Part shown: piece after piece, positions 1,518-33,707 of the stretch
How the letters are laid out: every line of letters begins with the position of its first letter
Numbering within the stretch: the first letter of the stretch is position 1
From: Catajapyx aquilonaris
Taxonomy: Eukaryota
DNA length: 51,614 nt
NCBI GenBank assembly: GCA_000934665.2
Contig: JYFJ02002761.1
Coordinates: 1-51,614 of the forward strand
Direction: 5' to 3'
Translations under genes and position numbers: made by a program
The notes under the pieces: generated by a model
What the model was told of the DNA's origin: nothing
The model's database searches: none
The model's input: only the letters and a program-made list of their open reading frames with translations

Positions 1518-2037
1518 CTAATATGCGTAGAATTCATGGCAGGGCACGACTGTCCCCACAACCGACGCCTGTACTTCTGGTCGTTGACACGTGCTGACAG
1601 CCAGGGAGTCGTCCAAGTACAAATCCCTCTGGTCCGGACACGCTGTCCAGAAAGTGCCAAGATGTACCGGTATGGGTCTATGCTTCTGCTCCGCTTCATC
1701 CTGCCGATACAACCGAAGACACCCATCTTGATGCATACCGCAAGTAGAGTACGGTGCAGCCCACAAGTACCCAGTCAGTCTAGCCTCCAACGCCTCATTA
1801 GCCGCATTGTCATCAACCTCCGACGTATGGCACGACGATGCAACAGGACACTCGGCACCTTCAGGCTCCTGTCGCTTCTTGCGACGAAGAAGTGACAACA
1901 CAGGTCGTACAACCTATAAAGACACACAACAATCAAAACACATGTACTAAAGTATGAAACAAGAGCCTTAGGAGGCAGACGCTTACCTTCTTAATCTTAT
2001 GAACTTTGGCAGCCACGGCCTTCCTGCAAACCTCCAT
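1518..2037 (-). CDS. E(spl)malpha: Bearded-family member (E(spl)malpha-like Neuralized inhibitor), 148 aa; exons 2037-1987 and 1913-1518
   Basis: Spliced product MEVCRKAVAAKVHKIKK|VVRPVLSLLRRKK (basic amphipathic B domain), DDNAANEALEARL (NxxN motif), PIPVHLGTFWT (G motif). 73-nt intron gtaagc..tttatag, phase 0. Exact orthology to malpha is inferred. Confidence 0.9.
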
Positions 2038-2139
2038 TACAGCAAACCACGTGCGTTGAACGATGAGGACAAGAGGAGCGAACCGGTAGTTCTGAGTGTT
2101 GAACAAGGTCTGATGGAACCGGCCGGCCTCCCCGAAACC

Positions 2140-2262
2140 TTTTATAAGCATGGCTGCCGTGACGTCATGGGGTCACGCGTGACGTCTCGTGGCAGGTGTG
2201 TGCCAGACACGAGGCAAAACTCTCCCCAGCGTGGGAAAAAGGGTCCGGGCTACGTTCCCAGG
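2140..2262 (-). promoter_or_regulatory. Promoter of BFM gene 1
   Basis: TATAAAA (minus) 2140-2146; TGACGTCA 2160-2167; CACGCGTG 2174-2181; N boxes 2186-2191 and 2208-2213; GCAGGTG 2192-2198; Su(H) CGTGGGAA 2230-2237 facing TTCCCAGG 2255-2262 across 17 bp. Confidence 0.8.
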
Positions 2263-5242
2263 GAGTTCTTCGCAGCCATATGTCCAGCTGGCACACCTAA
2301 TAGCCCTACGAATTCCTTAGGACGGACGGGGGCGCTCAACATCTGCTTGCCCTTCGATTGTATGCCCTACCTTTTCGGATTAGAAAACCAAACCCCCCCC
2401 CCCCCNCCCCCCCCCCTCTAAGACTACCCACCCACCACCCTTGAGGTATCCCTCAACTTGCACCTGCAAATACCTTTGTGGGGGTCGATCCCTGGACTTC
2501 TTCCTAGAGATGTAAGGATTTTTATTCATGACAGGTTGGGGTGACTCAGAAACCTTTTTTTGATGGAAAATGGGCACTTTTTTTTGAGACTGGTTTTAAG
2601 GTAAAAATTGAAATGGGGCTGGTTTATATTGTTGCCTCCGGAGTGGTTTTGATGGAGGAAATGGGCATTATTAAGCTTGACGTTTTGACATGTGGTTGTG
2701 AAGACGATTTTATTTTATTAGTGCAAAATGCACGTTTTGCGCCTTGCTGCAAAAGTTCGTAAATATTAATCAGTGTAAATCAGGATTTGCAGGATTGCCT
2801 TAGCTGCCTCAACATGAAACAGCACCTGAAGTAGAAACTAATTTTAAAAAATTTGTAACACATAGCAGTGGTATAAGACAACATATTTAATTATTCAGTT
2901 TTGTTACTCAATAAATTTAATCGAGCAACAAAACTGAAAAAATGAATTTATGGTTGAGATATATTTTTCGATATACATGTTGTAATGTAGGTCCCTGTGT
3001 GTCAGGATGCAAAAGAAGGATTATAGCCGTTACAGTATAGCCATGTTCACCTAAAAATGGTACAAAACGTGCTATTCATATTTAAATTTATTTCTGGCTC
3101 AGACTTGCTCAGACTAAGGAAAATCCGATCCTAGCTTGTAACATGAGTTGTGCGGAGGAGCAACACTGTCCAGTGCAAATAGCAAAATGCGACGAGGCGA
3201 ACCCAAGCGACGCTTCGAATACGAATATGAGTTTCCATTTTCATGATAATAGAGAAGAAAAGAGGTGAGAAGTGGGAGCTCTGGAAAGGGATTAGAGGCT
3301 TCTAACCCTTTTCAATCTCCTTTCTCACCTTCGACCCCCACCCTTTCAGTAATCGGACACAAGCAAGAAGACATTCTTCGTCTTCTTCTTTTTTTTATGA
3401 TGCAGCCTCTTACTGGATCTTCTTGGCGTCGTCTTGGTTGTGGTCCAGCCCTCAGTCAGGGGGCAAACAGAACCGTCTTGGTCGGCTTTGTTCATACCTG
3501 GCAGCTGCAGCTCCTTCCTCATCATAAAAGGAGCCAGCAAGTTCTGTCTTGCCCACCGCTTTTCTTCTTCTTCTTTTTTTATACCTTCTTGGAGCCTAAC
3601 CGTCTTCTCCAAGAAAAGAGCTAAGGAGGAGCCTTATTCTGGCCTTGGATATTAGATACGCCTGCTTGTGCTTTTACAGGGAGAAATAAATCTGCTTCTA
3701 TTCAACCGATTCCATCAGAGGACCTACCTGTGGCAATTACTTTCTCGGATGAAACCGCTCCGGCAGAAAGGATTAGCGGGATTTGGTTTTTTTATTGGCC
3801 GTGAAATTCAGGCTCCTTCGAAATATCTGAACAAGCATATGCCTAGGTTGTCAGCATGGACCACGATTTATGTACAGTACATCGCAATGAAATGATCTTG
3901 AAGTGCTCTGCATTTGAACAGTAATTAGTAATTACGTAGTACATGGCAAATAATTTCTTTTCGGCTGCAGTGTAATATCTGAGGACGTCGTTTGATCATT
4001 AAAGTAACTCCATTTATTAGCGACTTGTGTATTTTTTTCAACATTTTATGCAGGATGTATGAAATGCCAATATTCTCAATGCGCATGGTTTCTCGTGTGT
4101 ATGTGTAAACGTAGTTGTCTTTTCAGTAATAGTACATTATAGCTGACTACCAAGCATTATAATCGTAAATTTATGTAATGTACTTATCGATGTAACGAGT
4201 TAATTTTTTTGTGATGACCTTATGGAAACGGTAAAATATTGCTCACACTGAGCAAGTCCCAAGAGTGTAGTGAAGCTGTGTATTTTATACCCAAACAATT
4301 AGTTAAATCATAAGAAGCAATTTCAACAGTTAGGAAAACACGTGTCGCTATATTGTTGTTGCGTAAATTATACACAACACTCATCCCTATACTTCGGCGA
4401 ATTCCTTCTTTAAATAGTTGGAAACTAAGAGCAGTTCCGGGGCAGTTTGTGACTTCAATTATTGCACATAGATTCAGGTGAATGTGTAGGATTATGTGAT
4501 TTTTATTCATGGGATACACTCCATTTCATAATAGCAGTGTACATATTTGTGATCATCACGAACCTTTTTCAATTTGTAGGTGTAACGTACATTTCGAGTC
4601 CCTCCCCCTCCCCCACTCAGTATTGAAATCCCTTAGAAAAGCAGCGTGTTTCAAGACATTTTCATGCCACAAAAGAGACCAGTGCAAGTTGAGACTCGCC
4701 AAGAAGGATAAAAAGGATCCTTATAGAGCTGCCCCCCTATTCTCCTGCTCCTTTGGTCTTCAATGGCTCCTTGTTGTATTCAGGACTTGAGACCCACCCC
4801 CGTCCTGAAAAGGCTATGTTCAAACCTGACCCACACGGTATGTTCCGCCATTAGAAGAAGAAGAGAAAAAAAAATCATTCTACGGAGTTTTCAGAGCATT
4901 ACGGTGTAATCCGTCTCCAGCTATTATTTAATTAGTGTTTTTTTTGCTATCTTACCAAGCAGGATTTTAGGCCCCTTTTTTGCCCACCCACACCTTGAAT
5001 TTTAAATTAAGTAGGGGCAGGTGTGAGCGGTGATCAGTGCTTTGCTCTCGGCTTTGCTTACCCTTGGTAATCCGAAAAAAATGCCAACGGGAGAGGTAGA
5101 GAAAAAAAACCTGCCTACGTTTTTATTAAGGACTACAGTAAGGTAATATAATCCTGTTCTGGATAAGGTGAGCGGAGAGCAGGTGAGAAGTGCTGCCGTG
5201 GCTAAAAATATAATTGACTAAGAGAAAGTGGTATTAACATGA

Positions 5243-5686: not shown

Positions 5687-6386
5687 CTACGATCTCTGCA
5701 CCATCTTGTGAGCAACAGCCAGGAGGGCATCAGGCGGTTGGAACTGCTCCTTTGGATTTGCGTGCCCGAAGACGTTCCAGTAAGCGCATGGTACCTTCTC
5801 GGAAGTGGTTTGATGATGCCCATTCGAAGACAAGTCTGCTCCAACCTCTGGTTCCTCCTCCTCCTCCTCCTCTTGTAGCTGTCTAGCCGGCGGGGAAAGC
5901 AAGCATATGCAGTAAGATTCTGGATCCTTCTCTTCCTCCTGGGCCTGGTGCTGCTTCTTATGTGGTGGACCCAAGTTCAAGGACGAGCTTTCCCTCAACA
6001 TCTGCCGCTTCCGTTCCAAAGCCTCGTTCAAACGGTTGTCCTTCACCAAAGATTCTTCCTCCTACACCAAAAATTGTGGCGTTAGATATTTGCTACTGTA
6101 CCACACTAGCTATGGCCAATATTTGCTATTGTATAACACCTACCTGTGCGACAGGAATCCGGCAGTCTTCCACATGGTGGTCCGCAAAGGCATACAGCTC
6201 CTCCAGTACCTTCCAGTACAAATTCAGATTGACCCGAGCGGTGCTGGTGACCTTTCTAGGCAGCATTGGCTTCACAACCTGAACCCAACAAAGAAGTGTT
6301 AACACACCACACTTACACACTGGTCAAATGTATCTTACCTTCTTCATGGTTCTAGACTTGAGGCAAACTTCCTTCCCAACGCACAT
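5687..6386 (-). CDS. Divergent Bearded-family protein, ~185 aa; exons 6386-6339, 6278-6144, 6061-5687
   Basis: MCVGKEVCLKSRTMKK|VVKPMLPRK...CRIPVAQ|EEESLVKDNRLNEALERKR. NxxNExLE motif; two phase-0 GT-AG introns (60 and 82 nt) give one continuous frame; first intron at the same KK|VV position as gene 1; TATA upstream, GY/Brd boxes downstream. G and D motifs not recognisable. Confidence 0.8.
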
Positions 6387-6486: not shown

Positions 6487-6763
6487 TTTTATACGCGTGC
6501 CCGGCGCGAGCCAGGTGTGTGCCCAACTCGTGCCTGGGCCTTTGGGGAGAGGGGGTTGGAGGGTGAGGGGAGTGGGGACCCTGGGTTTTTGGGGAGGGTT
6601 TGTGTTCCACGCCTGGAATTACTCTGGGGATGTTTCGGGGAAGAATGGGATAACTATGATGCACTTGCCTGATTGTTTTGTTGGGAGGACACATGCGGTT
6701 GTTGGACAAGGGCACGTGTGGGAAAATTGTGCGTGAGAACTGGGGTTAAAAGAGACACTCACG
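6487..6763 (-). promoter_or_regulatory. Promoter of BFM gene 2
   Basis: TATAAAA (minus) 6487-6493 abutting CACGCG 6494-6499; CAGGTG 6512-6517; N box 6527-6532; CACGTG 6713-6718; Su(H) sites TGTGGGAA 6717-6724 and CGTGAGAA 6732-6739. Confidence 0.78.
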
Positions 6764-11916: not shown

Positions 11917-11937
11917 CACCTGCCACACTTTCCCACG
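11917..11937. promoter_or_regulatory. E-box/Su(H) composite, copy 1
   Basis: CACCTGC-CACACT-TTCCCACG. Confidence 0.7.
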
Positions 11938-14801
11938 GCTTGGGCCCCGCCACACTTGGCCCTCCTGCCAAAAACGCCGCCGACCACGTGGTTAGGCTGC
12001 GTCGGATTGGAGCGCGGGCGGAATATGGCGCCTTCTTCACGGGTCGCTCGTTCGCTCACCCCCCGGTTTGGCGGGCCTTCCCTTCTTTCTATACACACAC
12101 ACTCTGTACAGAAGGGTGGGGGGGGATTCAACCCACCCAACGAAAGGCGCTCTCTTTCTTTTCCCGCCAAGACGCAGCTGCGCCAGATTATTCCCAGGAG
12201 GATTCTCTGTCCTGGCCTGACATCTTTCGGCGGGAGAAGCGCCCACGTGGTTCCAACTCCAATATTGATATTCAACTAATGGCGGATTCACCCTCAAAAT
12301 GTACGAAATTGATTCAACATTAACCTAATTGGCCGTCTCGTGCTAATATCAGAACATCTCAAATGTAGCCTATGTCATTTGACAGGTTATTCGCAGCAGA
12401 ATATCGCATTTTCCTGTCTCAGTTTGGCAAAAAAGTACACGTGTTGTGTATACAGTCAATTCTAACACCGCAAGACCGCAACTATAAGTCAGTGACAAAC
12501 AATGACGTACAATATTTTTTTGTCTTAGAAAAGGCCATGATTTCAGCCTATAGGTCTCACGAGTAGGTGTCAGTACTGGTTTTATGAGTCATCATGTGCA
12601 TAAACTATGATCGTGCCACTCTCTGCTCATGTGACGTCTCAGGCTGTTCTGAAAATAAGACTTGCTTGTAAAAGTTGTTTCCCGCGATATTTTTTCTCCT
12701 TATCCTGATTAGCTCTCGGAATTGCATTACGTGACTTCTGCGCCATCATTCATGAAATAATTCATTTTTTTTTAAACAACAAGAAATCCACGAGTTTTTG
12801 CACTGACGTGTGAGTACCCCATTATTTGGAGAAATGTTATCAGTTGATCAATGTTTGTTGCCTTCTGCGCAATTAATTTATCAACACAAATTGGAAGAAT
12901 CCTCGTACAGTATATTGCAAATAGTAATGCCATTGCATACTACTGTAAAGTGTAAACCATCGATGTGTATACCCGACAGAAGTACAGCTTATATGCTGAT
13001 TTTTGGCATTACTAAATGATTTGGAAGTTATTGCGCAGTGCGACGTTTTTTTCCAGACGGAACATGTATTATTCAATATACAGTGCAATGTGTGCGGATA
13101 TAACGGTTTCGCTGTCGTTGTGTGCGGATTCGCACAAAGTTATTTACCCTCATCACTCTTCCTAAAAATCAACCGTGCGCACCTTTCGCACGACATACAC
13201 CAAGCCACACCTTGAATCCAACCGCGCAATCACCTCCGATGTTATCAGGTGTCCAAACCGCGAATTAAATTATCTTGTTTATTCCAAATCGCGACACCTC
13301 TTTTGCAGAATGTGACACCGCGTAGGCCCCCCAAACCTAACCGATTGCCGATAACCGCGAATTCTCCTAACCAAGTGTGGTAGTAATGACACTAGTAATC
13401 AAATCACGCCTACAAACGTCATAAAGTAGGGTGACAGACATCCCATAAAACAGATCGAAAAAAGAAGGGCATCTTAGTCGATCCGTGGTCCATTGCTGGC
13501 TTCTGGGCGCGCCCATGTCCTCCAGCCTTAAAATCCGGACTTGCAACCCCAGTCCCATTCTTCAACCCGGGTAATTAGGGAATTATTTCACGCGGAGCAG
13601 GAACAGGATCTGAACTCATGTGACTGCTTCCTGTGTTTAGAAGGGAGTGTGAGGCTGCAAAAGGCACGTGATGCTTCATCACTTTTGTTATTCCTCTCGT
13701 GTCCAAGCCACGTCGGATTCTTGTAATCACGCCAGGGGACTCCGACTGGATTACCTGGCCACTTGCACCCTGAATTTAAAACCGTTTCAAGCTGAATAAT
13801 GCCGGGTCGTAAGATGGCAATAAAAATTGGGAAGTTGAGGTATAAAATGCGGATCAGTCCTGTAGGTCTTGCAATTACGTAGATAAATTAGAAGCGATAC
13901 TTCCCGTAAATGTCTAGCGATTGTTACTTTGTTTCTGGATTTAAGAGGATGCGCTGTGATCACGTACTTAAAAAAAACTCGGATTGAAAACCGTCAAACT
14001 TTGCCACATTTTTTACATTTTAAAATTTCTGTTATCAATTTATGATTGACTTCCCTCATCTAAAAATAATCAAAATATTGTTGACTCCAAAAATATACTG
14101 CATATAGAAAAAATGAGGAGGAATTCTTGAGGACAGAGAATATACATTACTAGCAGGGAACCAGTTCTTCGCACGATGATTGATAATTAATAAAACTGGC
14201 AGATGAGACACCAAACATCAGTTTAAAAATATATAATCTAATTTTTGGGTATTTAGACTTAAAAAATTGCAGTTGACTTTTCCCGGAATCAGCTTCACGT
14301 AAGACGTCACTGTGACAAGTCTCAGTACTCTCTGTACTCTGAAAGTGGGGAGGTAGCAGCAGGGACATGCATAAATACCAACAAACTTTTTTTTGCTTTA
14401 TATACAGTATATATGAGATTTCAAGGCCCAAAATTTGCGATATCAGTGATTACGTCAGGATAAATCAGTGAGATATTGCAGTAACATTTTGAGGACATGG
14501 ATAAAATGATTATCATTGTTGCTATGTGCAAATATCCATTTTCAAGTTAATGAATTAATGCTTTTGCTTCGATAAGACCCTGTATAGATTGGCGAAGGAC
14601 GTTGCATAGCCTCACAGAGGCAAACCCCCTCACCATTTATGATTATTCATGAGAACCGGTTGTCCCCGAATCAGATAAAGCTTCAGAAGTGTGCAGGGCG
14701 TCTGTCAAGGAGCCCGCTCCAATCTCCACCAAAAAGACCTCCCCAACCACCCCTCCCTATCTACCTTTATCCACCCTCGTCGTCTTCTTCTCCATTCTCA
14801 A

Positions 14802-14822
14802 CACCTGCTCGACTTTCCCACG
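14802..14822. promoter_or_regulatory. E-box/Su(H) composite, copy 2
   Basis: CACCTGC-TCGACT-TTCCCACG. Confidence 0.7.
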
Positions 14823-15041
14823 ATTCCAAGCCCTCCAATGTTGCCACATCCAGCACTGATTTGACCATCGCAATGTCGCCTGACCATCGCCAAAAAGTAC
14901 ACCTAAGGAGGTGGGGTGGGGTGATGTGGGTGTGGGGCAGAGCACGAGGCGTGCAGCAGGCGGAAAGGTGTGTTTTGGAGGAGGGTTGGGGAGGCAGCCT
15001 GCTGATGGCCTGGCTCCTTTTCTGGTTGCGGCCACTGGGAA

Positions 15042-15077
15042 TGTTTTGGGAAGGAAGCTCTCGGGACGTTCCCACGC
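15042..15077. promoter_or_regulatory. Cryptic Su(H) paired site (16-bp spacer), copy 1
   Basis: TGTTTTGGGAAG-N13-CGTTCCCACGC. Confidence 0.6.
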
Positions 15078-15384
15078 CTAGCTGGTTGCTGCCTGCTGCA
15101 TGCTTTTCTGGCCAGCCCTCGTCTCGCCGCATGCCCCCAACCTTAACCGCCAACTGCTACCACTCTTTTTTCGACACCCACCCACCCACTATGCCACCTT
15201 CCGGAACATAAGGACTCGCGCCACTGTTTGCAAATATGGAGACAATACCCATGAAATTATATGCAAATTGTCAAAAGGTGCAATATAATTATATGGACCT
15301 TTTTTTTAAAAAAAAAAGGATGCCGACGATACAGAGGGAAATGGCAAATTGTTGTTTACGTCTGAGCGAATTAAATATCGGCTA

Positions 15385-15442
15385 AACTGAGATGTTACAC
15401 CTGGCTTAATACCAGTATTAAGCCAGGTGTAACATCTCAGTT
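15385..15442. repeat. Perfect 28-bp inverted repeat with 2-nt centre
   Basis: AACTGAGATGTTACACCTGGCTTAATAC-ca-GTATTAAGCCAGGTGTAACATCTCAGTT. Confidence 0.95.
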
Positions 15443-16852
15443 GCAGGCTGATGGGGCTAAATTAGCAACGTGCAAATATTTGGCAAGATTACGTGAAAGT
15501 TCCATATATTGATGTTAGATCTTAGCATCGAATATTTTAAACTGAATTTAAAGTGTCGGAAGTTCTTTGTCCGTTTTTAGTAAAAATCCTGTCGGATGCC
15601 ATGCTGGCCGATAAGCAATTCCGCGGCGGTGGTTCTGAAAGAGAACTAGTCGTGCTTTTGGTAACAAACCGTAAACAACAGGAGACAGGTAACCTTGCAG
15701 GTAAAAAAAGGGCTATACACAGTAGGGGTGAGGGAAGTAGAATGAAAAGGCTCCCTGGGAAGAATAAAAAAAATGTAAAAGCGGTAGCTCATCAATGTCT
15801 TGCACGTGCTTTAGAAAGCGCTTCTGTAATCTCCACTTTATCTTCCCTCAAATTAATTTTCCAGCATTAGGACTCACAGCTGACTGCATTCTTTTGGAGG
15901 ACCATGAATTACTAAATTACAAGCAACTGTTGGTCATTGGTTTGTATACTGTCGCAACACCTGATGTCACATATTTGGAGAAGGTCCATTCTAATGTCGT
16001 GGCCAAATCTTGAGATTAGTCTTAAGATTAAGGTTAATGATCCAGTCCCATTTTATCTACAAAGCACAATTTAACCAAGTGAAGGTGACGGACGTGTTCC
16101 AAATCGCCAATAAGATCTCACGTCCAAAATCCTGATTTCAATACCTGGATATTTTGATTGAACAGGTGTCGAGAACTTGCGAATGTGTGTATTATCGCCC
16201 GTATCTAAATCTTGCAACGCAAGTAAAACTGCTTTAACAAGGTCATGTACAGGTTTTGTGAGACCACCACACTTTTTCCCACCCCCAACCCCCTTCTTGT
16301 TAAAACTTATACCGCGCAACATACATAATGTATAATACGTCTAATCAAGCTAATTATATCCACACTCGAGCAAAAACGCAAGGAGAATGAGCTCTTAATG
16401 TTTTAATAAGGCGATGTTTCTGATGCAAAAAAGTGACACCTCACAACCCAACTTTCTAATAACCTCGGGAATGGACCCAGGTTGGTGAAATTTATAGCGT
16501 ATGAAATATGACAAGCCATCATTCAAACCATCACACCTTTCCATCTGACACATCACTCTCATCCCAAAGGAACAAAAAAAATCGTAATTACTAAAATTAT
16601 TCCAAATATTTAATATTGTTATATTTTCTGCCACCTGGTGCAATTAAACGATTATATAAAACTACCTTGCCAAGGTGAGCCTCATTACACAACCATATTC
16701 GAACATACTGAAAGAATCCGTCATTTTTATGAATGAAGTTCAAACGACATTTTGGAAGCGTGCACTTTTAACCTTGCCAATGTCCTTGGCTACCTGAGGT
16801 TCATTAATAATTTGGCAACCTTTTAAAAAAAAGGAAGGGTGAGTTTGTCCCC

Positions 16853-16873
16853 CACCTGCGCTACTTTCCCACA
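16853..16873. promoter_or_regulatory. E-box/Su(H) composite, copy 3
   Basis: CACCTGC-GCTACT-TTCCCACA. Confidence 0.7.
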
Positions 16874-17810
16874 CTGTGGGACCGGAAGTGATGAGGTAGC
16901 CGCCCACTCGCCTTGCCTTTTTCATGCCCCACAGGCCCAGCAGGGAACCATTTTTTTTGGGGAGGCAAAAGGACCACCCCTCTCCCCTTGCTCCTCACTT
17001 TGAAATTTTTATTTTTATTTGAGCAAGAAGTTTTGCAAGGGTTTGCGTGCGTGACCTTTTTCTTGAATGGCAGAATTTGCCTGGAGCCGTCTCGACTTTA
17101 GTCAGCTAGCCTGCTAGCAATAATCATATGACGTCAATTCCAAAAAAAAATGTGCATATTAATATGTTAATTTCAATCAGGCTGAATTACCTCACTGGGC
17201 TTTTGAGGGGTGGTTATTTTCTGACCGATTTTAATCACTGCCATTACTGCGTAATGAGAGAGTCTGGTAGTCCTGGTGCATTTCGACCGCAGAATAGTAA
17301 TGGCTTGATTAAGTCCAAATCATTGTCTTCATCTCCGAATATAATAGTGATTGCTCCAGAATAAACATCGCTCAAGTCAAGGCCGGCGCCTGATTACAAC
17401 TCGAGCAGTGTAAATAATCCGGTCAACTTTGCACCGTACAACAACCCAGCAGGTGCACCAAATTGCAGCACAATAAAAGTAAATTAAAGAAAAAAAAATC
17501 AGATCAGGCGAATAATCACATATTTTTCTTAACGTGTTGATGCAAATGGCTTGGTTGTGGAACATTTGTTTGTCCTATTGCAGTAATTCCACCTATGTCA
17601 CATACCGTCACAACCCCCTACTAGCATGTCGTATGTCGATGATTCACCCGGTACATAATTACTCTCATATGACTCACAATAGTGCAGCCGCTCTTTATTT
17701 AAAAAAATCCGGCCATGACCTAGGACAAGGTCGGTCGCGAAAATAAAAGCCCGCGAGTGAAGAGCTGTGTGTGTGTGTGTCTCGGCCCGTGCCTGGCGGA
17801 TTCCCCGACC

Positions 17811-17906
17811 ACAGGTGGCGGCTTGTGTGTGGGAACGTGGTCTTCTTCCACTTTCTCACGGGCCGTGGACTGCAGCCGGACGGACACCTGGCGGCCGCCT
17901 ATAAAA
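17811..17906 (+). promoter_or_regulatory. E(spl) gene 1 promoter: E-box + Su(H) paired site + TATA
   Basis: ACAGGTG 17811-17817; TGTGGGAA 17828-17835, 17-bp spacer, TTCTCACG 17853-17860; CACCTG 17885-17890; TATAAAA 17900-17906. Confidence 0.92.
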
Positions 17907-18019
17907 AGGTTGCGCAGAACCGGCCGCACCAGCCCATTCCCGCGCTTCATCTCGAGCTGTGAGGACGTGCCTTTAGATCTCTCTCCATCAGTGCTCAGTG
18001 TGTTCAAAACAACCCAGAC

Positions 18020-18741
18020 ATGGCTACTGTTGTGGACTTTGAGGAGCAGCCAATCTCACGCACTTACCAGTACAGAAAGGTCAGTATTGTGCCTAATTAG
18101 TGATAATTATAATTTGTGTCGATAAGACCGGTCCTAAGTAGACCATGAGCTGTAGAGTGTGTACTTATAGGTGTGTCTTTTTGTAGGTTATGAAGCCTAT
18201 GCTGGAACGTAAGCGACGTGCAAGGATCAACCGGTGTTTGGATGAGCTGAAGGAGTTGATGGTTGGTGCCCTGCAGGCTGAAGGCGAGAATGTGTCCAAG
18301 TTGGAGAAGGCGGATGTGCTGGAGCTGACTGTGCGTCACTTGCATAAGCTGAAGCACCAGCAGGTACTGGGGATGACACCGGAGGTCAGCTATGCGGACC
18401 GATTCAAGGCTGGGTTCACCCATTGCGCCAGCGAGGTGTCAAAGTACTTGGCGGCCGTACCTGGTGTCGACATGACCGTGAGTGCCCGACTTCTGGCCCA
18501 TCTGGGTGTGTGTCTTCGCCACATGGAGAAGACCTCGCCGAGCACCCTGCAGGTCAGCGTGGCCAATTCTTACACGCCACCCAGTTCACCTTTGGCCGAG
18601 CCGGTCAGCCCTGCATCGCCGGTCAACCTGAGCGGCCGGTACTGTGTGGTACCGCTGCCCAGAGCCGAGTCCACGCTGTCCGTCTGCAGCGAGAGCAGTC
18701 AGTCGTCTTCGGCCAGTAATCCGATGTGGCGACCGTGGTAA
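18020..18741 (+). CDS. E(spl): E(spl) bHLH-Orange-WRPW repressor (mbeta/mgamma-like), 204 aa; exons 18020-18079 and 18187-18741
   Basis: [45 protein letters not shown]...KLEKADVLELTV; Orange domain FKAGFTHCASEV...RLLAHL; C-terminal WRPW; intron gtcagt..ttgtag. Confidence 0.97.
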
Positions 18742-18752
18742 AAAAAAAGACT

Positions 18753-19111
18753 TGTGATATGTGGACAGTGTGGTGTGCGATTCTCAGGAACAGTTGGCCA
18801 ATGCATACCATTAAAAAAAAAAACAACTCCAGTGATTAGTATTACTGTTTCATGGATAATTTTTATGTGGGAGTACAAGAAAATGGGGGGTTTTGATATT
18901 TGAAATTTATGATGTTGATTGCTAGCCTATTTTGGCTGCCTTTTTGTTTCTTGTAGTAGTGCCTTTTGGTGAAGGAAGGTCTTGTCCAACATCAGGGTAT
19001 TCATGCGGAATGACAATCTCAATTGTAGATGATTTTTTAAATGATAGGGATTTTTTTTTCTTTTTTTATGTATAGGGTTAGAGACTCATTGTTTTTTGAG
19101 GAACTGTGATA
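18753..19111 (+). promoter_or_regulatory. K boxes in E(spl) gene 1 3'UTR
   Basis: TGTGATA at 18753-18759 and CTGTGATA at 19104-19111; candidate AATAAA at 19575-19580. Confidence 0.8.
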
Positions 19112-21958
19112 TTCGTACGGTATTGTACCTGATGGGACATAGCATATTGCTATTTTGCCTGTTAATATTTACTTGAAAACTTGTTGTAGACGTATTTTTT
19201 TGTTGATTGGAATGTCAATGTTTTACCAAACATTGGTGTTTATAAAAAGAATTTGAACTTGGAAATTAAACCATGATGTTCTGATATCCGATTGTTTTCT
19301 TTGCTCGCTTCGTTCATTAATTTTTCCTAACAGGTTGTCGCCGTCTGTGGAAGGTATAATTTTGGGACAGGGTGGGTGTAATCTGCACATACATTTGGGT
19401 TGCATAATAATACGAGGTGCGCAATACGATGAGTTGCTGAAGTAATTGCTAATACAGTACAGTGCACTCATCTTCAGATATATATTTTTTTAAATTAACC
19501 AAACTGTAGCTGTAAGATTTTTAGCTAACAAGTATTGATGAGAATACAGAAGTCAAAATTTACTGAAATTTTTAAATAAAAAATGTCCAATGCTGAATGT
19601 AATTGTGGGAAAATTTTCTGGAAACACGCACTGTTTTTATCGCACTTAACAAAACTTGCGTAATTGAATAGCCCAGTATGGAGGTCTTCACACCTAGTTT
19701 TTAGGCTAACTGTTTAGTGAGAAACCTTTCTTCCTTGGGACCGAATAAAAAGTTCGTGTTAGGGCACGTGAATAATTACCGACATTTGCCTGGATATTTT
19801 CTCACATGGTACGCTCGCAACGTGTAATTACCTCCTCAGAAGGTGACGTACGACGTAAAATGAGTAAATTGCAATTCAGGTGAATGCCAGCATAAAAAAG
19901 TCCCAACCCTCTTACAATTTTCCTCTTTATTCAAAAATTATTTTTAGCATAAGTGGTCTGAAGTTGAGGGACATAAATACTCATGAGGAAATCACTGCGC
20001 ACAATGTATGGAGCTTTGGAATGAAATGATCGGAACACCGGCGAATATCGAAGAAAGCCACTGAATTTCTGAATAGTGTTATACAGAAATTGCAGCAATC
20101 AAGGTTACAATATACGCTAACAATAGATAATAAAAGTCAAAATTGTAGGGGTAAGAAATGCCGAGGGATTTATCAGTTAAAGATGACTGAAATGTGTACA
20201 AGATTTCACCAGCTTATTGTTAGATGTACTATCTCAATCCGACAAAAAGGCCGGACCTCCGGCATACTGTTGTAAATTAGAACCACATGATATTTCATCC
20301 TCGACTATAACTGATTATTATAACCTCTCGATGTATCATGTCCCTTGGATTTATTTTCAAAATATTATTGTGTGTTTTGAAGTCATTTGTCCTTCTAATA
20401 AGTATAGGCCTAGTCTATATAGAGGGAATTATATGCTGGCCAATCAATTAAGTCGTTTGCGTAGTTTTTTAAAGATTTTTTTGATAGATAATTTCTGTAG
20501 CTGTCGATTCAGGTACCGGTAGATTATAAAATTCTGTAATTATTAATAGTTGTTTTATGCCTAATAAAAGTGGGCAGTTTTACTGTAGTTATAAATCGAA
20601 CTTCCTTCTCACTTCATATATAGGAGATGATCAGACATCAGAGGCGCCTCAAATCAAGAGACTGAGAAATAAAATGCATTGGTTGTATCCATAACACATT
20701 TCTCATATAGGGCATCCTCCCGCATCCTGCTCTACATAAAATATACTATTAACTATTAACATAATGCAATTATTGACAACAATAATTTTATTTTAATGGT
20801 CTATTGTCTCGTAATCTTCGGGCTTTCGTGATTTACGATTCAATCGCCAAATGAGCGAATAGAAATCGCGAATATTATCAGTAATTCTGAAATCGAAATG
20901 GGCAAGTTATTGCTTTATTTATAATGACGTAAACCGTATTACTCTATCTGATGTAATATTATTTTCTATTGAAATATTGTATAGTTTTCTCATACGTGCC
21001 CTCTTTATCATCATTATTGAAAATACTGTACAGTATATAGCTGATTTGAAAGATTTGAAGAGAGAAGCTATATGTAGGCCTATAGTGTTACAGTATAATT
21101 CACGATTATTAGAATGTTCATAGCTCTAAATTTCCAATTAGGCCGAAAAGTACTGTATTAATAATGACCCTTTAGTCAATTCTTTATATCTGCCGAAAAC
21201 GTTTTCCGCCTGTATGGTTGTGATGCTTTATTTTTATTCGCTCGATTAATTGATACATAAATAACATAATTATGACATTTCTACACATGATGCGAGAATA
21301 CTAATGATCCAACATTCGAGCATAATTCATGTTTTGCCGTTCTCTTCTCTTTTTCATGCTCATTCTTCAGCTAATTACATAATTATGCATAACTATACAT
21401 CAGGTGGCAGACAGGCCTAGAGCTTTAAACACGTTTAATTGATATTACGCTTAATAAAAAGCAAGGCCAGATTTTTTATTCAAAAAAAGTGATGGAACGT
21501 AGACGGCACTCCCACTTTGCCCACCTGGAAATAAAAAAAACAGCGCAATGTAATTGATGCACACGCAAGTGTACTGTAATACCAGTCGGCGGCATCAAAA
21601 ACACATTACGTAACCAAATATTGAAAAGCGTTTCCTAACACATCATTTTTATTACAGCACCAGCATAAATATTTTGAATTCGGTGGTGCATATTTTAATC
21701 AAAAAATATTTGACCTATCATTATGATTGAAATGGGCCCACACCTCACAAGAACAAACTCCAATTTAGAACCAGTAGATCCCATTGGTTCCTAATTAGCA
21801 CCATTAAGCAACGAGTGATGCAAGTGAGCTTGGGGGCTCCTGTATGCAAGCAAGTGGCAGATGGTGTAAATGAGAAGAAGGGCTGACGTCAAGGCGTTGC
21901 CTGCTTTCCAGTTGACCTCAAAGACATCCTCCGTGGCCCCTATGGCTGCTGCCACAAG

Positions 21959-21979
21959 CGTGGGAATTGGAGGCAGGTG
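21959..21979. promoter_or_regulatory. E-box/Su(H) composite, copy 4 (inverted)
   Basis: CGTGGGAA-TTGGAG-GCAGGTG, directly preceded by N box CACAAG 21953-21958. Confidence 0.7.
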
Positions 21980-22573
21980 TTCCCTCTCGGCCACCAGAAA
22001 ATCCCAAACTCCCCCTCAAGGCATTTCCACCTTAGGGGCCAAAGCACATTGTGTCGATACAGTCCAACTTTCTAGGAGCCTCAGGCTATCAAATCTTGTC
22101 CGGAATAAGAATACAAATGCGGATTCAGATAATTGACTACCCAACGTGAGATAACTAACGAAACGGAAGCTGTTCCTCCGGATTACATTCAGGCAAAAAC
22201 CACCCCCAGACAGCGACAGCCTGATTCGGAATGGCGATTAATCTACTTATGAAACATTAATTTTTTCCGCCCTCACCTTCTACGTCTCGCATGAACCAGA
22301 TTCTCCAGACAGGAGCCTCAATCACATGCATAATTTACCACCAGTTTCATCCTTTAAAAAACTGGTTGTCAATTAAGCGTTTTTTTGGCACAATTTTCAA
22401 TTTTTAAGGCTATGATCCGAATGATAAACAGGTTGCTATAGACGAAAAATTTTTGGGGTCTAATTACACCTTTATTTACGCTCGCTACTGTTCGCCAACC
22501 TGTACCGCCCACCTCATTATTTCAGCACGTACCACAGGGTGACTTTAGCAAAAATGTGTGGACCCATCCTGAG

Positions 22574-22594
22574 TGTGGGAAAACTAAGCAGGTG
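22574..22594. promoter_or_regulatory. E-box/Su(H) composite, copy 5 (inverted)
   Basis: TGTGGGAA-AACTAA-GCAGGTG. Confidence 0.7.
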
Positions 22595-22989: not shown

Positions 22990-23025
22990 TGTTTTGGGAA
23001 GCCTGTTGCAGGCCCGTTCCCACGC
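22990..23025. promoter_or_regulatory. Cryptic Su(H) paired site (16-bp spacer), copy 2
   Basis: TGTTTTGGGAAG-N13-CGTTCCCACGC, same arms as 15042-15077. Confidence 0.6.
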
Positions 23026-26230: not shown

Positions 26231-26430
26231 ACAGGTGGCTCTGCTGAGCGGAGAGTGTGGGAATTTAGGCTGGTCCCCCGTTCCCACGCTCCCGACACGA
26301 GCCAGCAGCAGGCAAACCCCGCTCCCCACCAACCACCACCCCTCTTTTTACCATTCCTCCACATCACCTGCACTCCCCCTACAACCCCCAAGAAGAAGAA
26401 GAAGAGGGGGGGTTTCCTCTTCTATAAATA
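26231..26430 (+). promoter_or_regulatory. E(spl) gene 2 promoter: E-box + Su(H) paired site + N box + TATA
   Basis: ACAGGTG 26231-26237; TGTGGGAA 26256-26263, 17-bp spacer, TTCCCACG 26281-26288; CACGAG 26296-26301; TATAAATA 26423-26430; Inr-like TCATTC 26454-26459. Confidence 0.92.
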
Positions 26431-26562: not shown

Positions 26563-29500
26563 ATGTGGAGCAGCAGGATGGATCTGTCCAGCAGCAGCAT
26601 CCGACCTCAGCATCAGCAGATAGACGCCAACGAGATGCCCATCTCCAGAACTCTGCAGTACAGAAAGGTAAGGATCGGTGTCCTTCACGTGGCAACCAGG
26701 TTTAGACCTGGGTGATGTGCAGGTAGTGTCGCGTCAGTTAGGCGGGAAGCTGAGGCAACTTAGACCATTTTGTTTGGAGTGATTTTAGACTCGACTTTAG
26801 TGGAGTTTTAAAACCGGGTTTATTCTAGTTGATTCAATTTTCGGAGCAATTATTCGGTCAATTTTAGGAAAATTATTATTCAGTCGGTCATAGCTAATAC
26901 TTTTCTCAAGTGAAATATTATTGAAAACATTGCACCATCCTGCCTGCATCATGCACGTTTATTAAAGAAATCAATTTTGATTAACTTCCCTGACGAACTT
27001 GAATCAGAATTATTTGCAGCTGCTATGTGAAATTCATGAAAATTATATCTAATAATTGAGGCTTTTCCTTTAATTATTTTAGTTGCAATAACGCGATTAA
27101 AAAAATTACTCATCAAATTATTTCGAGAGTATTTTTTAAAAATTGGGTTATTGGAATATAATTCAAGGAAAAGCGTCAATTATGAGATATATTGCATGAA
27201 TTTCCCTGATTTTTCACTGCAGTTGCAAATAATTCTGATGCACGTTCGTCAGGTACTGAAAATTGATTTCTCAAATAAACGTGCATGATGCAGGCAGGAT
27301 GGTACATCGTTTAAGTAAAACTTCTCATAATTGTCAATTGCCTTTAAACTCCGGAGTATAGGCTAATTATGTCTCACAACCGTGTAACACCCGGCATTTG
27401 ATTGTATACATATATGGTTGAAACCAATAAACCTGTTCTATTCAGTAATATGCTTATTAAATGGGCATATGCGCGCTGCATAATAGTCAAATTGTACAGA
27501 AAATTGACACGAGCTGTCACATGTCAGACAGCAAATTAGATTTGCGAATCAAGGGCAAACGCACCGGTTTTTCCCAATTTTTTCATAATTCGCAATAAAC
27601 CGTCCGGTCTGACAGGTTTTAACATGAACCGGTTTCCTTTTTCACAGCCTCTAAGTGCAGCCTCATGTATGCATTTGCTGATTTGCAATTGCACCACAAT
27701 TTACTATTTCCACATCAGGTTCTATTTGTTGCTGGCAAAAGAGGTTAATGAGCTCATATTGTTAGTGCATGCCGCCATAAATGACTTCTTGAGTCATCCA
27801 CAGAATGACCACACTCAGTAGAATTGTCGACCCCAGCAATCTGACTTTTTAACTTTGGGCAGTGCACCACCCTGTAGAATCCGCTCAATGAACCACACAC
27901 GCGATGCTTTCATCAGCACGAAAACTCCACTGCATAAGTAGGACTTATCTCAATTTGTGTCATGCAACGGGCATGGGAGCGGAAAATGCACTGGCCTCCT
28001 TTAATTGCCTGTAAGGGATTTTTAGCTGGAAGGTGACATGCAAACAGGACTTATCTTCGAGCGTTTTTTTTGTAACACGTTTGGCGTATTGTTACAGGTG
28101 ACGAAGCCTTTGCTGGAACGGAAGCGACGGGCACGTATCAATCGTTGTTTGGACGAGTTGAAGGATCTGATGGTGGGCGCATTGCAAGCAGAAGGAGAGA
28201 ATGTGTCCAAGCTGGAAAAGGCAGATATCCTGGAGCTCACCGTCAGATATCTACACAAGCTCAATTCAAACCACATGCTGAATCCTATGGAAGACGCACA
28301 TCGCTTCCAGGTTAGTGTTGTCTCCTTAAAAACATTTAAAAAATAAACAAATTAAAGCACTTAATTTGCGAATTGATGCTATTCCAACCACAAATATTTT
28401 ACGACCTAAAATGGGCATCTTTGTTAGAAAATCGCGGTGCTTCTGAGGATAGCTTCTCCAAACTGGTTGTGAACCTGCGTAATCATGAGTGGTGTGGGTG
28501 TATTTCCAGAACAGATGTAGACTGCGGTTAATTGGGGGTTTAAAACAATTATCGTCATTGTCAATTTCCAAGATGTAGCATTTCTAATAATACATCAGTT
28601 TCAACCCGTGATCCCGGTACGCATCTCACATAGTCTGCTAAATATCCCATATGTGAATAATAGTGAGATTGTGGTCACGCGAAAGTGAAGCCTACACTTA
28701 TTTGCACTAAATTTTAAGCAGACAATATTTTGCCGTTAAATAATGAGGAAGTTATCAAATTGCAAAATCCGACAGGAGAATGGTTTTTAAAAACTTGTTG
28801 TTAGGTTGGTTACGCAGCATGATCGTTGCTAGCACATAGCACATAATAATATTTACTAGGATGTTGGACAGGTATTGCAAAGCAATTCAAGCATAAAAAC
28901 ATCATATATGTGGCTCGAGAAGGAGTGAAAAAGTCACCCTCAACCTATACGCAACCATAATTAACTTATTTCTTATTTTTCTTACAAAAAGGGCAAATTG
29001 GGTAGAAAATATGGAGAATTCACGTGACATAACTTTTAAGTGATTTTTTGCTGGCATTGAATGAAAAGTGAGCTACAGTTTAAAAAAAAAACTCTCCTGA
29101 TATTGCTAAGTTCCTTACTTTCAAAGTTGCGAGCATCTGAGTCGGATATGTCTGCAAACCTTTTCAAAAGTGCTTTGAAAGATTCATGCAGTACTTATTA
29201 CTACTATAGCCCTTTAATAGGTTATATGTATAAATCGTATAATTTAGTAGAATATTCAAAGAGGTTTCCTGCGCTGATAATGAATGTATTTTTGGATCAT
29301 GTCCTGAGACTAAGCAACTAAAATGGTATTTTTATTGGCTCTCAAAATTGATATAAATATTGAATCACTTCTGAATTAATACACTCTTATTAAAAACGCA
29401 ACAATTTTGTGCACATTTTCAGAGTAGCCTACATTCTATCAACAGTGCACTCAAAAAATATTATTATCAATATCCCAATAATTTACGAATCCGAATTTTT

Positions 29501-30278
29501 GCAATTAGGATGACGTGAAAACAAAATAGTAAAAATCCCTTTCGTTTCTGCTAAGATATGCACTATCAAAAAATCAAGTAAAGCCAGTAAAATAAACAGC
29601 TAGTAATGTTGGTTGTCTGCTGTCAGGAAAGAATTCAAAAATCATGAAATTCCTCCTTATTAATCACTAAACATGCCACAAAATTGGAAAATTCGCTTCA
29701 AATCGAGCATTAAATGATGTCTATATATAAGTAGTATTTTCGAACATGTTTCTGCCAATATAAAACTCATCAGTAAATAATACAGTACCGTATCGTGCAA
29801 TACCTTTACGATGACATTCCCGCCATCTCTCGTCGTACATCCAGACTAACTGTTGGCTTGTTTGTTTCCACAGGCGGGCTTTACGCATTGCGCCCAAGAG
29901 ACGAGCCAGTACTTGATGAAGGCCCCCGGAGTGGACGTCCTGGTCAGCAGGCGTCTTATGTCCCACCTCAGCTCCTACGTTGAGCAGCCAGGAGACATGG
30001 AGGATAGCCCATCAAGCAGCTGCGACGTGCCTCTCAGCGTCCAAGTGCCTTCGCTCCAGCGACCCTATTCTCCTCCAGTGTCTCCAGTCACACCAACAGA
30101 GCCAGCACCAGAATTCTACAGGGAACCACTGAAGGACCTGCGTTCTCATCAACAACACTACGCCATGTCGTGCACTCCGACTGCTCAGGACTTGTCCAAA
30201 CCTTTGACCGGTCTGTTGATGCCTGCCAAAGGGATGCCGGTCAGACCAGAGCCGCAGAGAATGTGGAGACCATGGTGA
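26563..30278 (+). CDS. E(spl): Second E(spl) bHLH-Orange-WRPW repressor, ~240 aa; exons 26563-26667, 28098-28310, 29874-30278
   Basis: MWSSRMDL...[36 protein letters not shown]...[21 protein letters not shown]...MWRPW; two phase-0 GT-AG introns. Start could instead be ATG 26578. Confidence 0.95.
26934..27303. mobile_element. MITE/foldback-like element in intron 1 of E(spl) gene 2
   Basis: Perfect 30-bp inverted termini ACCATCCTGCCTGCATCATGCACGTTTATT (26934-26963 / 27274-27303), imperfect complementarity extending to ~125 bp; AT-rich non-coding core; no clear TSD. Confidence 0.75.
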
Positions 30279-31961: not shown

Positions 31962-33707
31962 TCAAAAAGTGCACGAAGGAACATTTCTAGGAAAATCGCA
32001 TTTTTGATTCTTCGGATTGAAAACCAGCCCGTTTGCGCACTGGTCAATCCCTTTCAACCCATTCATGCAAATGTAAAAACTAGAACAGTCGTTCTCAACC
32101 GGATAAAAACCATCCTCAGCACCGCAAACACCCGCGCAATCCGAAACATTACTCGTGCATTGGTTCGACTTCGGATTAAATATTTTGAACCGACTGCACT
32201 CCTGCGCAATAGGAATAAACCCTCCGTACTGGTATCTGCCGCAATAATAGTAAGTACCTGTGCACTTGTACTTCGTTGGCTGGAAAACGCCCTGAGCTGC
32301 GCAACGCCCTATCTCCGCCGCGCAATCTTTATTGTCGCCTAAGTACACACATTGTCGACTTGCCGGATCGAACCCTTCGTCATACCTGCGACATTTGCCA
32401 ACAACGACTTTGAACCCACCGCCATTCTGGTCCGCCACGCATCTATAAAAGTACCGGCAGTAATTCGGTATCGCCATCGGACCTGATGCGCTCGTACATA
32501 TGTCGTCCGGCAATTGAATCGTACGACAATCGGCATACCCGTTGTAAGAGCAAGGGTCTGCCAGGTAGTCCAAGTCAGGGTTAAACACTTGGGAAGATTT
32601 GCATACCCTGTGGGTGGGAGAGACGCCTGATTCGTCGCATTGGTAGTATTTGGAACAATTTTGGAAATCAGGGAATGACGTGAGGGTTTCGGGGCATTGG
32701 AACATCTCGGTATTGCATTTCCTTTCAGGCGATCCTGGCATGCACTCTCCTTTGTAGCAATGCCAGTCATATCCGCAGTACTGCAAATCCACATTCTTCT
32801 CTATTCCTTCGGCGTTTTTGAAGCAAAGTACCGCCTTGGAGCAATCGTCGGAACATGTCGGGCCACCGTCACAATTAGAGATTGACGCTACTCGAGGTGC
32901 TAGAGGTGAGAAGGACGGAGCTTCCTGACATTCCTTGCCCTGCAGAATTAAATAAGTCATAACTCATAATGAACGATCAGCAATTATGCTTATAAAAGTT
33001 TTAGTGAAGAGAACTGTAAGTTTGTGAGCACATTATGAGTCAGTTGGGAACACTAAACCAGAACATGAAAAACTTACTGTGTCTTCTGGAACGCAGGTAT
33101 TCCTCATGGCAGAGAACATGCCTTCAGGGCATTTTATGAGTTGGAATTGGAGGTCTCCATCTTCATTCTTGAAGCAGAAGTAAAACTTGTGGCAGTCGGT
33201 GGGGTTGGGAAAAAGGCCGGGAGAGGGACACATGAACCTGAAGGAGAAATGGGGCCAGTTGAAAACATGTAGGAGAAGTGAATAAGTTGGAGAGATTTCA
33301 ACTTATGGATATATAAATAAACGGAAGGCCGATCAACGGTTAGTGCTGTAATAAATATGTCAAAATAAAATTAATAAGTGATGGAATGCTTTTCTTTTAG
33401 ACCATGCTGTTTGTGGACAATGGCTTTCTGATTAAGTCAAATAAGTGGAGCATAAGTTCCGCACGTTATACGTATGCACCACACAAACCTATAGGTGGAA
33501 ATGGACTGAGAGCTTAGGTCGACATTATAATAAGCTTCAACATTCATCGAAATAATGTGATATACTCACTCGGTTCCATTTGAAGTTTCTTGCGATGTAA
33601 CCAAGTTGGCAGAAACTGACACCTGCGAGTAATGTTAAAATTACACAATTAGCACAATGTCAGAGTTATGAATATCTCACCAGAAATATAAAGGATAGGA
33701 GCGACAT
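31962..33707 (-). CDS. Secreted peritrophin-like protein with multiple ChtBD2 (CBM14) domains, ~405 aa; exons 33707-33681, 33622-33570, 33237-33078, 32939-31962
   Basis: Signal-like MSLLSFIFL|VSVSANLV; six-Cys repeats such as CPSPGLFPNPTDCHKFYFC...C and CGAEDGFYPVENDCSSFYIC...CANGLVFNPKNQKCDFPRNVPSC; splice phases 0/2/0 consistent; TATAAAA 33766-33772; AATAAA 31847-31852. Confidence 0.88.

What the first reader, a model, noticed from the sequence alone, without database searches (positions are those of the whole stretch)
11917..22594. Fixed-grammar composite CACCTGC-N6-TTCCCAC repeated five times
Seen: E-box and Su(H) site in the same relative orientation with an exact 6-bp spacer at 11917, 14802, 16853 (spacers all end in ACT) and, inverted, at 21959 and 22574; flanks are unrelated, so this is not a repeat element. 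Established: proneural + Su(H) synergy at E(spl)-C is known but usually described with flexible spacing; the vertebrate PTF1 complex (Ptf1a/E-protein/RBPJ) binds CACCTG..TTTCCC in this same orientation about one helical turn apart. Inference: a stereospecific bHLH-Su(H) complex, either proneural/Da or a Fer1/Ptf1a-like and possibly Notch-independent input.
Basis: partly seen in the sequence, partly recalled or inferred. Interest (0 to 1): 0.75.

Follow-up and report, generated by a model that had tools for sequence, protein, structure and literature searches.

The report
Rigid E-box plus Su(H) enhancer site
In an arthropod cluster of Notch target genes, a binding site for the Notch effector Su(H) repeatedly sits at one fixed distance and orientation from an E-box, a layout also seen in an insect and in copepod-like crustaceans, which suggests an old, undescribed two-protein docking arrangement whose partner is still unknown.

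Summary
Confirmed. Five copies of CACCTGC-N6-TTCCCAC lie in non-coding DNA of an arthropod Enhancer-of-split complex, with unrelated flanks. With the full Su(H) consensus there are 6 copies in 285.6 Mb; the sixth lies upstream of a third E(spl) bHLH gene. There is no genome-wide peak outside the complex. In 79 metagenome-derived E(spl) loci, 3 of 8 close E-box/Su(H) pairs fall in the same register (p about 1e-4), including an insect copy at the matching position, 22 of 24 bases identical. However, 13 of 18 longer loci lack it. The element is distinct from the promoter SPS+E-box (gap 9-35 nt), from fly m-alpha (14 nt, flipped) and from the one PTF1 spacing I could read (5 nt, against 6 here). 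Best reading: a rigid Su(H) + Da-containing bHLH site, probably proneural (about 0.5). An accidental fly copy was inactive in proneural clusters. A Ptf1a orthologue with both tryptophan motifs exists, so a PTF1-like or a repressor partner stays open. Binding was not tested.

The parts
11917..11937 (+). Composite 1: E-box (GCAGGTG on the other strand) + 6 nt + full Su(H) site; between the Bearded-type gene and bHLH gene A, 6.0 kb upstream of gene A's TATA box
14802..14822 (+). Composite 2, 3.1 kb upstream of gene A
15047..15076 (.). Asymmetric SPS-like pair (weak TGGGAA, 16 nt, full TTCCCACG) about 230 bp from composite 2
16853..16873 (+). Composite 3, 1.05 kb upstream of gene A; 22 of 26 bases identical to the copy upstream of the third E(spl) gene (G000:C1619:4249)
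21959..21979 (-). Composite 4, between genes A and B; the only copy of the six lacking the first T of a TTTCCC TC-box
22574..22594 (-). Composite 5, between genes A and B
22995..23024 (.). Second asymmetric SPS-like pair with the same 16-nt layout, about 400 bp from composite 5
17811..17906 (+). Gene A promoter: ACAGGTG, Su(H) paired site (17828-17860, 17-nt gap), TATA at 17900. This is the known SPS+E-box type, separate from the composite
18020..18741 (+). E(spl) bHLH-Orange-WRPW gene A (bHLH1 type by inference); intron 18080-18186
   Evidence: a spliced contig in run X5 covers 17948-19192 across this intron
26231..26288 (+). Gene B promoter: ACAGGTG + Su(H) paired site
26563..30278 (+). E(spl) bHLH-Orange-WRPW gene B (her type by inference), three exons read by eye; start codon uncertain
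5687..6347 (-). Bearded-family-like gene (NxxN-type motif; no Pfam hit), with two tandem Su(H) sites at 6717-6739
   Evidence: motif definition recalled

Best explanation
An ancient, rigid composite enhancer element of the E(spl) complex: one high-affinity Su(H) site with a class I/II E-box fixed 6 nt from its GAA end, in one orientation. Most likely Su(H) and a Daughterless-containing bHLH dimer, most plausibly Achaete-Scute/Da, sit side by side on it. The element would then work as an AND gate: E(spl)-C genes are activated where Notch signal and proneural protein coincide, and the E-box is quenched by Su(H)-corepressor when Notch is off. The E-box lies on the side of the Su(H) site where the second Su(H)/NICD sits in a paired site, so the element may be a mixed paired site in which a bHLH dimer replaces the second Notch complex. 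Shown: the sequence grammar, its confinement to the complex, and its recurrence in other lineages. Inferred: that both sites are bound together, who binds the E-box, and the sign of the output.
For: (1) 6 of 6 strict copies in 285.6 Mb lie at E(spl) genes, against a mean of 1.7 background hits for each of 12 other spacers. The flipped E-box gives 26 hits with a flat spread and none on the two E(spl) contigs. (2) Independent loci: 3 of 8 CACCTG/CAGGTG-TTCCCACR pairs within 20 nt fall in the one pre-set bin of 84, p about 9e-5. (3) L029 (nearest named relatives are thrips, 71-72%) has the element about 2.2 kb upstream of the paired site of the same gene type, in the same orientation as C1619 (1.8 kb), 22 of 24 bases identical. 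L047 and L070 (nearest named relative Tigriopus, 64%) both have it 0.6-0.8 kb upstream of the Bearded-type gene; the L070 copy appears only with relaxed sites. (4) GCAGGTG is the E-box given for proneural activators at E(spl) (PMC1310631; RCAGSTG in PMC3390367). All six genomic copies have this G; none of the six background CACCTG-N7 hits do. (5) Da binds Su(H) directly (PMC2686717). Cooperative binding of Ac/Sc and CSL at close sites is a standing model (PMC6677740). (6) Internal contrast: the promoter E-box to SPS gap ranges from 9 to 35 nt in 10 distinct promoter sequences.
Against: (1) In Drosophila the Da-Su(H) contact is through the Da N-terminus; the Da bHLH and Ac did not bind Su(H), and synergy needed the paired site. 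That does not predict a rigid single-site spacer. (2) Fly reporters that by accident carried an ACAGGTG E-box at this register and orientation next to a CGTGGGAA site (7 nt counted by eye in Text S1) were inactive in notum proneural clusters. This was one copy, in a foreign context, scored in few tissues. (3) The characterised fly m-alpha E-box is 14 nt away and flipped, so proneural + Su(H) synergy works without this geometry. (4) 13 of 18 loci of 3.4 kb or more lack the element, including three long loci of gene A's type (L044, L033, L022); none covers a whole complex. (5) CAGGTG is also the core for Snail-family and Zfh1 zinc fingers (recalled). (6) No binding or expression data exist for these modules.
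Confidence: 0.5

Rival explanations
1. PTF1-like trimer: the Ptf1a/Fer1 orthologue with Da binds the E-box and docks its tryptophan motifs on Su(H), driving or gating E(spl)-C genes without Notch.
For: PTF1 is the one bHLH-CSL complex with documented constrained spacing (PMC7197352; PMC2586380). 5 of 6 genomic copies have a full TTTCCC TC-box. This genome encodes a Ptf1a orthologue (G000:C2245) whose last exon keeps both tryptophan motifs and matches proteins named Ptf1a.
Against: The gap is 6 nt (12 bp centre to centre) against 5 nt in the example read and about 10.5 bp for one turn; the tolerated range was in papers not held. There is no such site at the native gap on the 34-kb Ptf1a contig, although vertebrate Ptf1a autoregulates through PTF1 sites. 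The strict element is confined to the E(spl) complex rather than spread over a differentiation programme.
Confidence: 0.17
2. The E-box is read by a repressor (Snail/Escargot/Worniu or Zfh1) that contacts or blocks Su(H)/NICD at fixed range and limits Notch-induced E(spl) expression.
For: The RCAGGTG core fits these factors (recalled). It would explain why the accidental fly copy gave no proneural activity.
Against: Short-range repression usually tolerates variable spacing (recalled). Three CACGTG E-boxes occur at the same register near HES genes (L050:457, L047:4490, C129), which suggests a bHLH geometry; these are post hoc, and there is no genome-wide CACGTG peak.
Confidence: 0.15
3. Another Da-containing or Da-homodimer input (non-neural bHLH), or one multi-finger protein reading the whole 21-mer.
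For: The AACACCTGC flanks in 4 of 6 copies suit E-proteins generally (recalled). Part of the spacer is conserved between C1619 and L029.
Against: The spacer middle varies freely across eight aligned copies, and both halves match known single-factor consensus sites exactly.
Confidence: 0.1
4. Relic of old local duplication of one enhancer: both sites are kept by selection, but the spacing is inherited rather than required.
For: The copies nearest gene A and the C1619 gene share 22 of 26 bases, which fits descent from one copy.
Against: Flanks and spacer have diverged fully with no indel in any of eight strict copies, while the promoter E-box gap in the same genes drifts from 9 to 35 nt. Two copies are inverted.
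Confidence: 0.08

Closest known systems
PTF1 (Ptf1a/E-protein/RBPJ) bipartite site, E-box + TC-box
   Same: One E-box plus one CSL site at constrained spacing, roughly one helical turn. The same order on the strand (recalled; orientation was not stated in the passages read).
   Different: Gap 6 nt, not the 5 nt of the example read. Found at Notch target genes rather than acinar or GABAergic genes. No copy at the Ptf1a locus. Invariant proneural-type GCAGGTG in all six genomic copies.
SPS+A / SPS+P code of E(spl) promoters (Cave et al. 2009, PMC2686717; Rebeiz et al. 2012, recalled, not held)
   Same: Su(H) and proneural-type E-box input to E(spl)-C genes; present in the three bHLH promoters here.
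   Different: The composite uses a single Su(H) site, puts the E-box on the GAA side, is distal (1-6 kb from a promoter) and is rigid; the promoter E-box is on the outer side at 9-35 nt.
Drosophila E(spl)m-alpha enhancer E + S pair (Liu and Posakony 2012, PMC3390367)
   Same: E-box on the GAA side of a Su(H) site, position conserved and needed for proneural-cluster activity; similar AACACCTGC flank.
   Different: 14 nt gap and the E-box in the opposite orientation; a single occurrence rather than a grammar reused six times.

Membership tests
PTF1 binding site | E-box plus TC-box (TTTCCC) | tested here: met
   5 of 6 genomic copies; the 21959 copy has ATTCCC
PTF1 binding site | Boxes one (or two, three) helical turns apart, centre to centre | tested here: inconclusive
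   12 bp here against 11 bp in the 5-nt example; tolerance data are in papers not held
PTF1 binding site | Ptf1a orthologue with the two CSL-binding tryptophan motifs exists in the organism | tested here: met
   G000:C2245; motif names recalled
PTF1 binding site | Autoregulatory site at the Ptf1a gene, as in vertebrates | tested here: not met
   No E-box/TTCCC pair at gap 5 or 7 on the 34-kb contig; one CAGGTG-oriented pair at gap 6 with a weak site. The contig may not hold all enhancers.
PTF1 binding site | Trimer binding needs both boxes and is Notch-independent | not testable with these tools
   needs EMSA and reporters
SPS+A (Su(H) paired site plus proneural site) | Two inverted Su(H) sites 15-17 nt apart | tested here: not met
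   each composite has one Su(H) site; paired sites lie elsewhere
SPS+A (Su(H) paired site plus proneural site) | Proneural-type E-box RCAGSTG | tested here: met
   GCAGGTG in 6 of 6
m-alpha-type E + S pair | E-box 14 nt from the Su(H) site in the m-alpha orientation | tested here: not met
   6 nt and opposite orientation
Dispersed repeat or transposon | Homologous flanks and near-identical spacers | tested here: not met
   contrast the repeat-borne CATCTG-N10-TTCCCAC set, 38 near-identical copies

The most novel reading that the evidence does not exclude
Pancrustaceans have a stereospecific Su(H)-bHLH complex on DNA, distinct from both the Notch dimer (SPS) and PTF1, that predates the insect-crustacean split and the duplication of the E(spl) bHLH genes. 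It is either a mixed paired site in which a proneural dimer takes the place of the second Notch complex, or an arthropod PTF1 with a shifted register that feeds a Notch-independent input into the main Notch output locus.
Probability: 0.4. Interest if true: 0.82.

Novelty: new variant of a known kind. Interest (0 to 1): 0.62.

Why it matters
How proneural proteins and the Notch complex cooperate on E(spl)/Hes enhancers is an old question with no structural answer; current models are accessibility versus cooperative binding (PMC6677740). A naturally repeated 21-bp element with invariant geometry, kept in an insect and in copepod-like crustaceans, is a ready substrate for binding assays, spacer scans and a structure. 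If the partner is Fer1/Ptf1a instead, it would be a Notch-independent input into the main Notch effector locus.

Tried and rejected
Genome-wide programme: rejected. Outside the complex the register shows no excess with CACCTG/TTCCCACR (6 of 46), CAGCTG (8 of 55), CACGTG (4 of 36), CACCTG/TTCTCACR (5 of 43) or CATCTG (7 of 33 after dropping the repeat-dominated N10 bin) (bins counted by hand). Four relaxed-site hits elsewhere (C1350, C3530, C29, C99) showed no recognisable Notch target within 5 kb by ORF reading.

A genome-wide excess at PTF1-like gaps (5-6 nt to TTC): seen in 2 of 5 E-box classes (p 0.006 and 0.009, uncorrected), absent in the other three, and a non-E-box control varied from 5 to 13 per bin. 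Not claimed.

Other HES loci (20 kb each around two hairy/deadpan-like genes and one Hey-like gene) and the achaete-scute contig (40 of 64 kb) carry no CACCTG composite.

A third shared motif near the six copies: best k-mers p about 3e-5 to 6e-5 among 1,500-3,200 tested, not significant after correction.

The viral-contig scan gave 113 stretches, one match in each of the 80 listed; uninformative and not pursued.

Sequencing runs: no RNA holder listed. The only independent run did not cover the composites, so no polymorphism test was possible.

Pfam does not recognise the three Bearded-type proteins. The protein atlas did not name the Ptf1a pieces. The E(spl) protein tree did not resolve gene types with starred support. 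Complex prediction was not run because it cannot include DNA.
Full report
OBSERVATION. The pattern CACCTGC-N6-TTCCCAC occurs five times in the window, at 11917, 14802 and 16853 (+) and at 21960 and 22575 (-), against none in 100 shuffles. Every copy continues with a purine, giving the full YGTGGGAA Su(H) consensus (consensus as defined in PMC3390367). Two permutation nulls never reached five in one bin; the stricter one forced nearby E-boxes to within 30 bp and reached four once in 50,000 trials. The modules are not homologous outside the cores, apart from an SPS-like 39-mer and a 15-mer shared by two modules in non-colinear order. The copies sit in locally GC-rich patches, 46-58% against 41% for the window.

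CONTEXT. The window is an Enhancer-of-split complex: a Bearded-type gene on the minus strand (about 5687-6347) and two bHLH-Orange-WRPW genes on the plus strand (A, 18020-18741; B, about 26563-30278). A contig from run X5 is spliced across gene A's intron and covers 17948-19192; none of the composites lies within it. A third E(spl) gene lies near the start of contig C1619, with a paired-box gene further along. Dearden 2015 (PMC4575448; part 1 of 6 and passages) reports that bHLH1 and her run opposite to the Bearded gene, bHLH2 runs with it, and gooseberry often flanks the complex. This fits C1619 being the adjoining part of the same complex, with A = bHLH1, B = her and C1619 = bHLH2. That is inference: the contigs were not joined, and my tree did not resolve the types with starred support.

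GENOME-WIDE TEST. Nine of the 15 lack the purine of the Su(H) consensus; six of these are copies in a zinc-finger array or in retrotransposons. The remaining six are the five window copies and C1619:4249, 1.8 kb upstream of the third gene's paired site. Twenty strict hits are spread over 12 other spacers. With the E-box flipped there are 26 hits, evenly spread, none on the two E(spl) contigs. Outside the complex no E-box class shows an excess at this register. So this is a grammar of the E(spl) complex, not a genome-wide programme.

OTHER LINEAGES. A metagenome scan with gene A's bHLH confirmed 136 relatives and returned 79 loci, 366 kb in 50 clusters. Among all CACCTG/CAGGTG pairs within 20 nt of TTCCCACR, in four geometries, 3 of 8 fall in the pre-set bin (L029, L047, L056), p about 9e-5. 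L029, whose nearest named relatives are thrips, has the element upstream of the same gene type as C1619, in the same orientation, with 22 of 24 identical bases. L047 and L070, nearest named relative Tigriopus (via L081, 77), both have it 0.6-0.8 kb upstream of a Bearded-type gene. The two L070 copies and the CACGTG versions (L050, L047:4490) appeared only after relaxing the sites and are post hoc. Against universality: of 18 locus clusters of 3.4 kb or more, 4 carry a CACCTG version, 1 only a CACGTG version, and 13 none, including three long loci of gene A's type. No locus spans a full complex. The window copy at 16853 and the C1619 copy share 22 of 26 bases, which suggests the element is older than the split of those two genes (inference).

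INTERNAL CONTROL. All three bHLH promoters here have ACAGGTG upstream of a Su(H) paired site, with gaps of 11, 19 and 9 nt. In relatives the gap is 12-35 nt in 7 distinct sequences, and 3 have no such E-box within 60 nt. The distal element is therefore a different thing: a single Su(H) site, with the E-box on the GAA side, at an unchanging gap in eight strict copies.

MECHANISM. I take Su(H) binding to the YGTGGGAA half as very likely from established specificity. The E-box GCAGGTG is the one listed for proneural activators at E(spl) (PMC1310631, passages; PMC2529316, passages). Achaete-scute-like genes exist in the genome (naming by eye from recalled sequence features). Da binds Su(H) directly, but through its N-terminus; the Da bHLH and Ac do not, and synergy on m8 needed the paired site (PMC2686717, parts 1-2 of 3). 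That supports the partnership but does not explain a rigid gap. In a paired site the second Su(H) site begins 17 nt past the GAA end; here the E-box core lies 8-13 nt past it, so a bHLH dimer would sit over the region where two Notch complexes meet (structural detail recalled). I therefore favour a side-by-side Su(H)-bHLH complex acting as an AND gate, at about 0.5.

EVIDENCE FROM FLY CONSTRUCTS. Liu and Posakony 2012 (PMC3390367; abstract, passages, Text S1 and Table S2) show that the m-alpha E-box must stay 14 nt from a Su(H) site. Text S1 shows it is flipped relative to this element, so m-alpha is not a member. Two of their constructs bear on the element by accident. m-alpha-shrink has this orientation with a 10-nt gap and lacks proneural-cluster activity. 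The ASE5 mutants gained an ACAGGTG E-box 7 nt from TTCCCACG, which is this register by my count, and the authors report no proneural-cluster activity in the pupal notum. One copy in a foreign context is thus not sufficient in flies. This counts against the simple proneural reading and is compatible with a repressor or another bHLH.

PTF1 RIVAL. PTF1 sites are an E-box and a TC-box one to three turns apart (PMC7197352, PMC2586380, PMC5576485, PMC9545688, PMC6033939, PMC8431614; passages). One example has a 5-nt gap (bioRxiv 10.1101/2020.12.02.409003, passages). Here the gap is 6 nt, 12 bp centre to centre, about 34 degrees further round. The genome does encode a Ptf1a orthologue with both tryptophan motifs, whose tail matches proteins named Ptf1a in damselfly, thrips, amphioxus and echinoderms. 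Its 34-kb contig has no composite at this register. A hint of genome-wide excess at PTF1-like gaps appeared in 2 of 5 E-box classes and lay within control noise. I give this rival 0.17, a Snail/Zfh1 repressor 0.15, another factor 0.10 and inherited spacing 0.08.

NOVELTY. Ten full-text searches listed no paper describing this element; most listings were seen as titles and abstract starts only. PMC5880239, PMC6677740 and PMC6777938 were seen as passages and did not describe it. The papers most likely to have noticed it were not seen: Rebeiz et al. 2012 and Beres et al. 2006 were not held, Castro et al. 2005 and Masui et al. 2008 were not fetched, and all four are known to me only from recall or citation. 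The supplement of PMC2529316, which may hold fly E(spl) conserved blocks, could not be read. Novelty is therefore provisional: a new, rigid variant of the known Su(H)-plus-E-box code, working like a PTF1 site in design but not shown to be one.

VERDICT. Real, non-random, confined to the E(spl) complex, and conserved in part across distant pancrustaceans. Partner and output are unresolved and directly testable. Interest 0.62.

Noticed in passing
window 15047-15076 and 22995-23024: Two asymmetric Su(H) paired sites with the same layout (TTTTGGGAA, 16 nt, TTCCCACG), each a few hundred bases from a composite.
   Followed up: partly
window 6713-6739: The Bearded-type promoter has two Su(H) sites in direct tandem, not inverted, overlapping a CACGTG; the fly m-alpha enhancer also has a tandem direct pair.
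   Followed up: no
window 2192-2260 and 1043-1090: E-box plus SPS-like pair, and E-boxes either side of a Su(H) site, 3.5-4.6 kb beyond the 3' end of the Bearded-type gene; candidate enhancers for the gene on C1619.
   Followed up: no
L050:457, L047:4490, L096 (G000:C129 about 79290): CACGTG E-boxes at the same 7-nt register to a Su(H)-like site near HES genes; two share the spacer start TCCGA. No genome-wide peak.
   Followed up: partly
L123 (G000:C2245 about 16.2-17.6 kb): Ptf1a/Fer1 orthologue retaining both CSL-binding tryptophan motifs.
   Followed up: yes
L011:7221-7736 (G000:C1619 about 27.3 kb): Paired-box gene 20 kb downstream of the third E(spl) gene, matching the gooseberry linkage reported for insects.
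   Followed up: partly
G000, 38 contigs such as C284:79161 and C579:188: A dispersed repeat carries CATCTG-N10-TTCCCAC with a near-constant spacer (38 of 81 hits), so it spreads a consensus Su(H) site with an E-box through the genome.
   Followed up: no
window 18753, 19105, 30535, 30981 (+); 5255, 5433 (-); 30995 (+): K-box, GY-box and Brd-box words downstream of the three genes, as in fly E(spl) 3' UTRs (motif definitions recalled).
   Followed up: no
window 31962-35704 and 48246-49592: Cysteine-rich chitin-binding peritrophin-type genes flank the complex on the right.
   Followed up: no
window 26925-27312, 15385-15442, 40938-41809, 51026-51457: Long inverted-repeat elements, probably miniature transposons; one lies in gene B's first intron.
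   Followed up: no
G000:C129 about 50.6, 75.5 and 121.3 kb: Three hairy/deadpan-like bHLH matches on one contig, the first two convergent.
   Followed up: no
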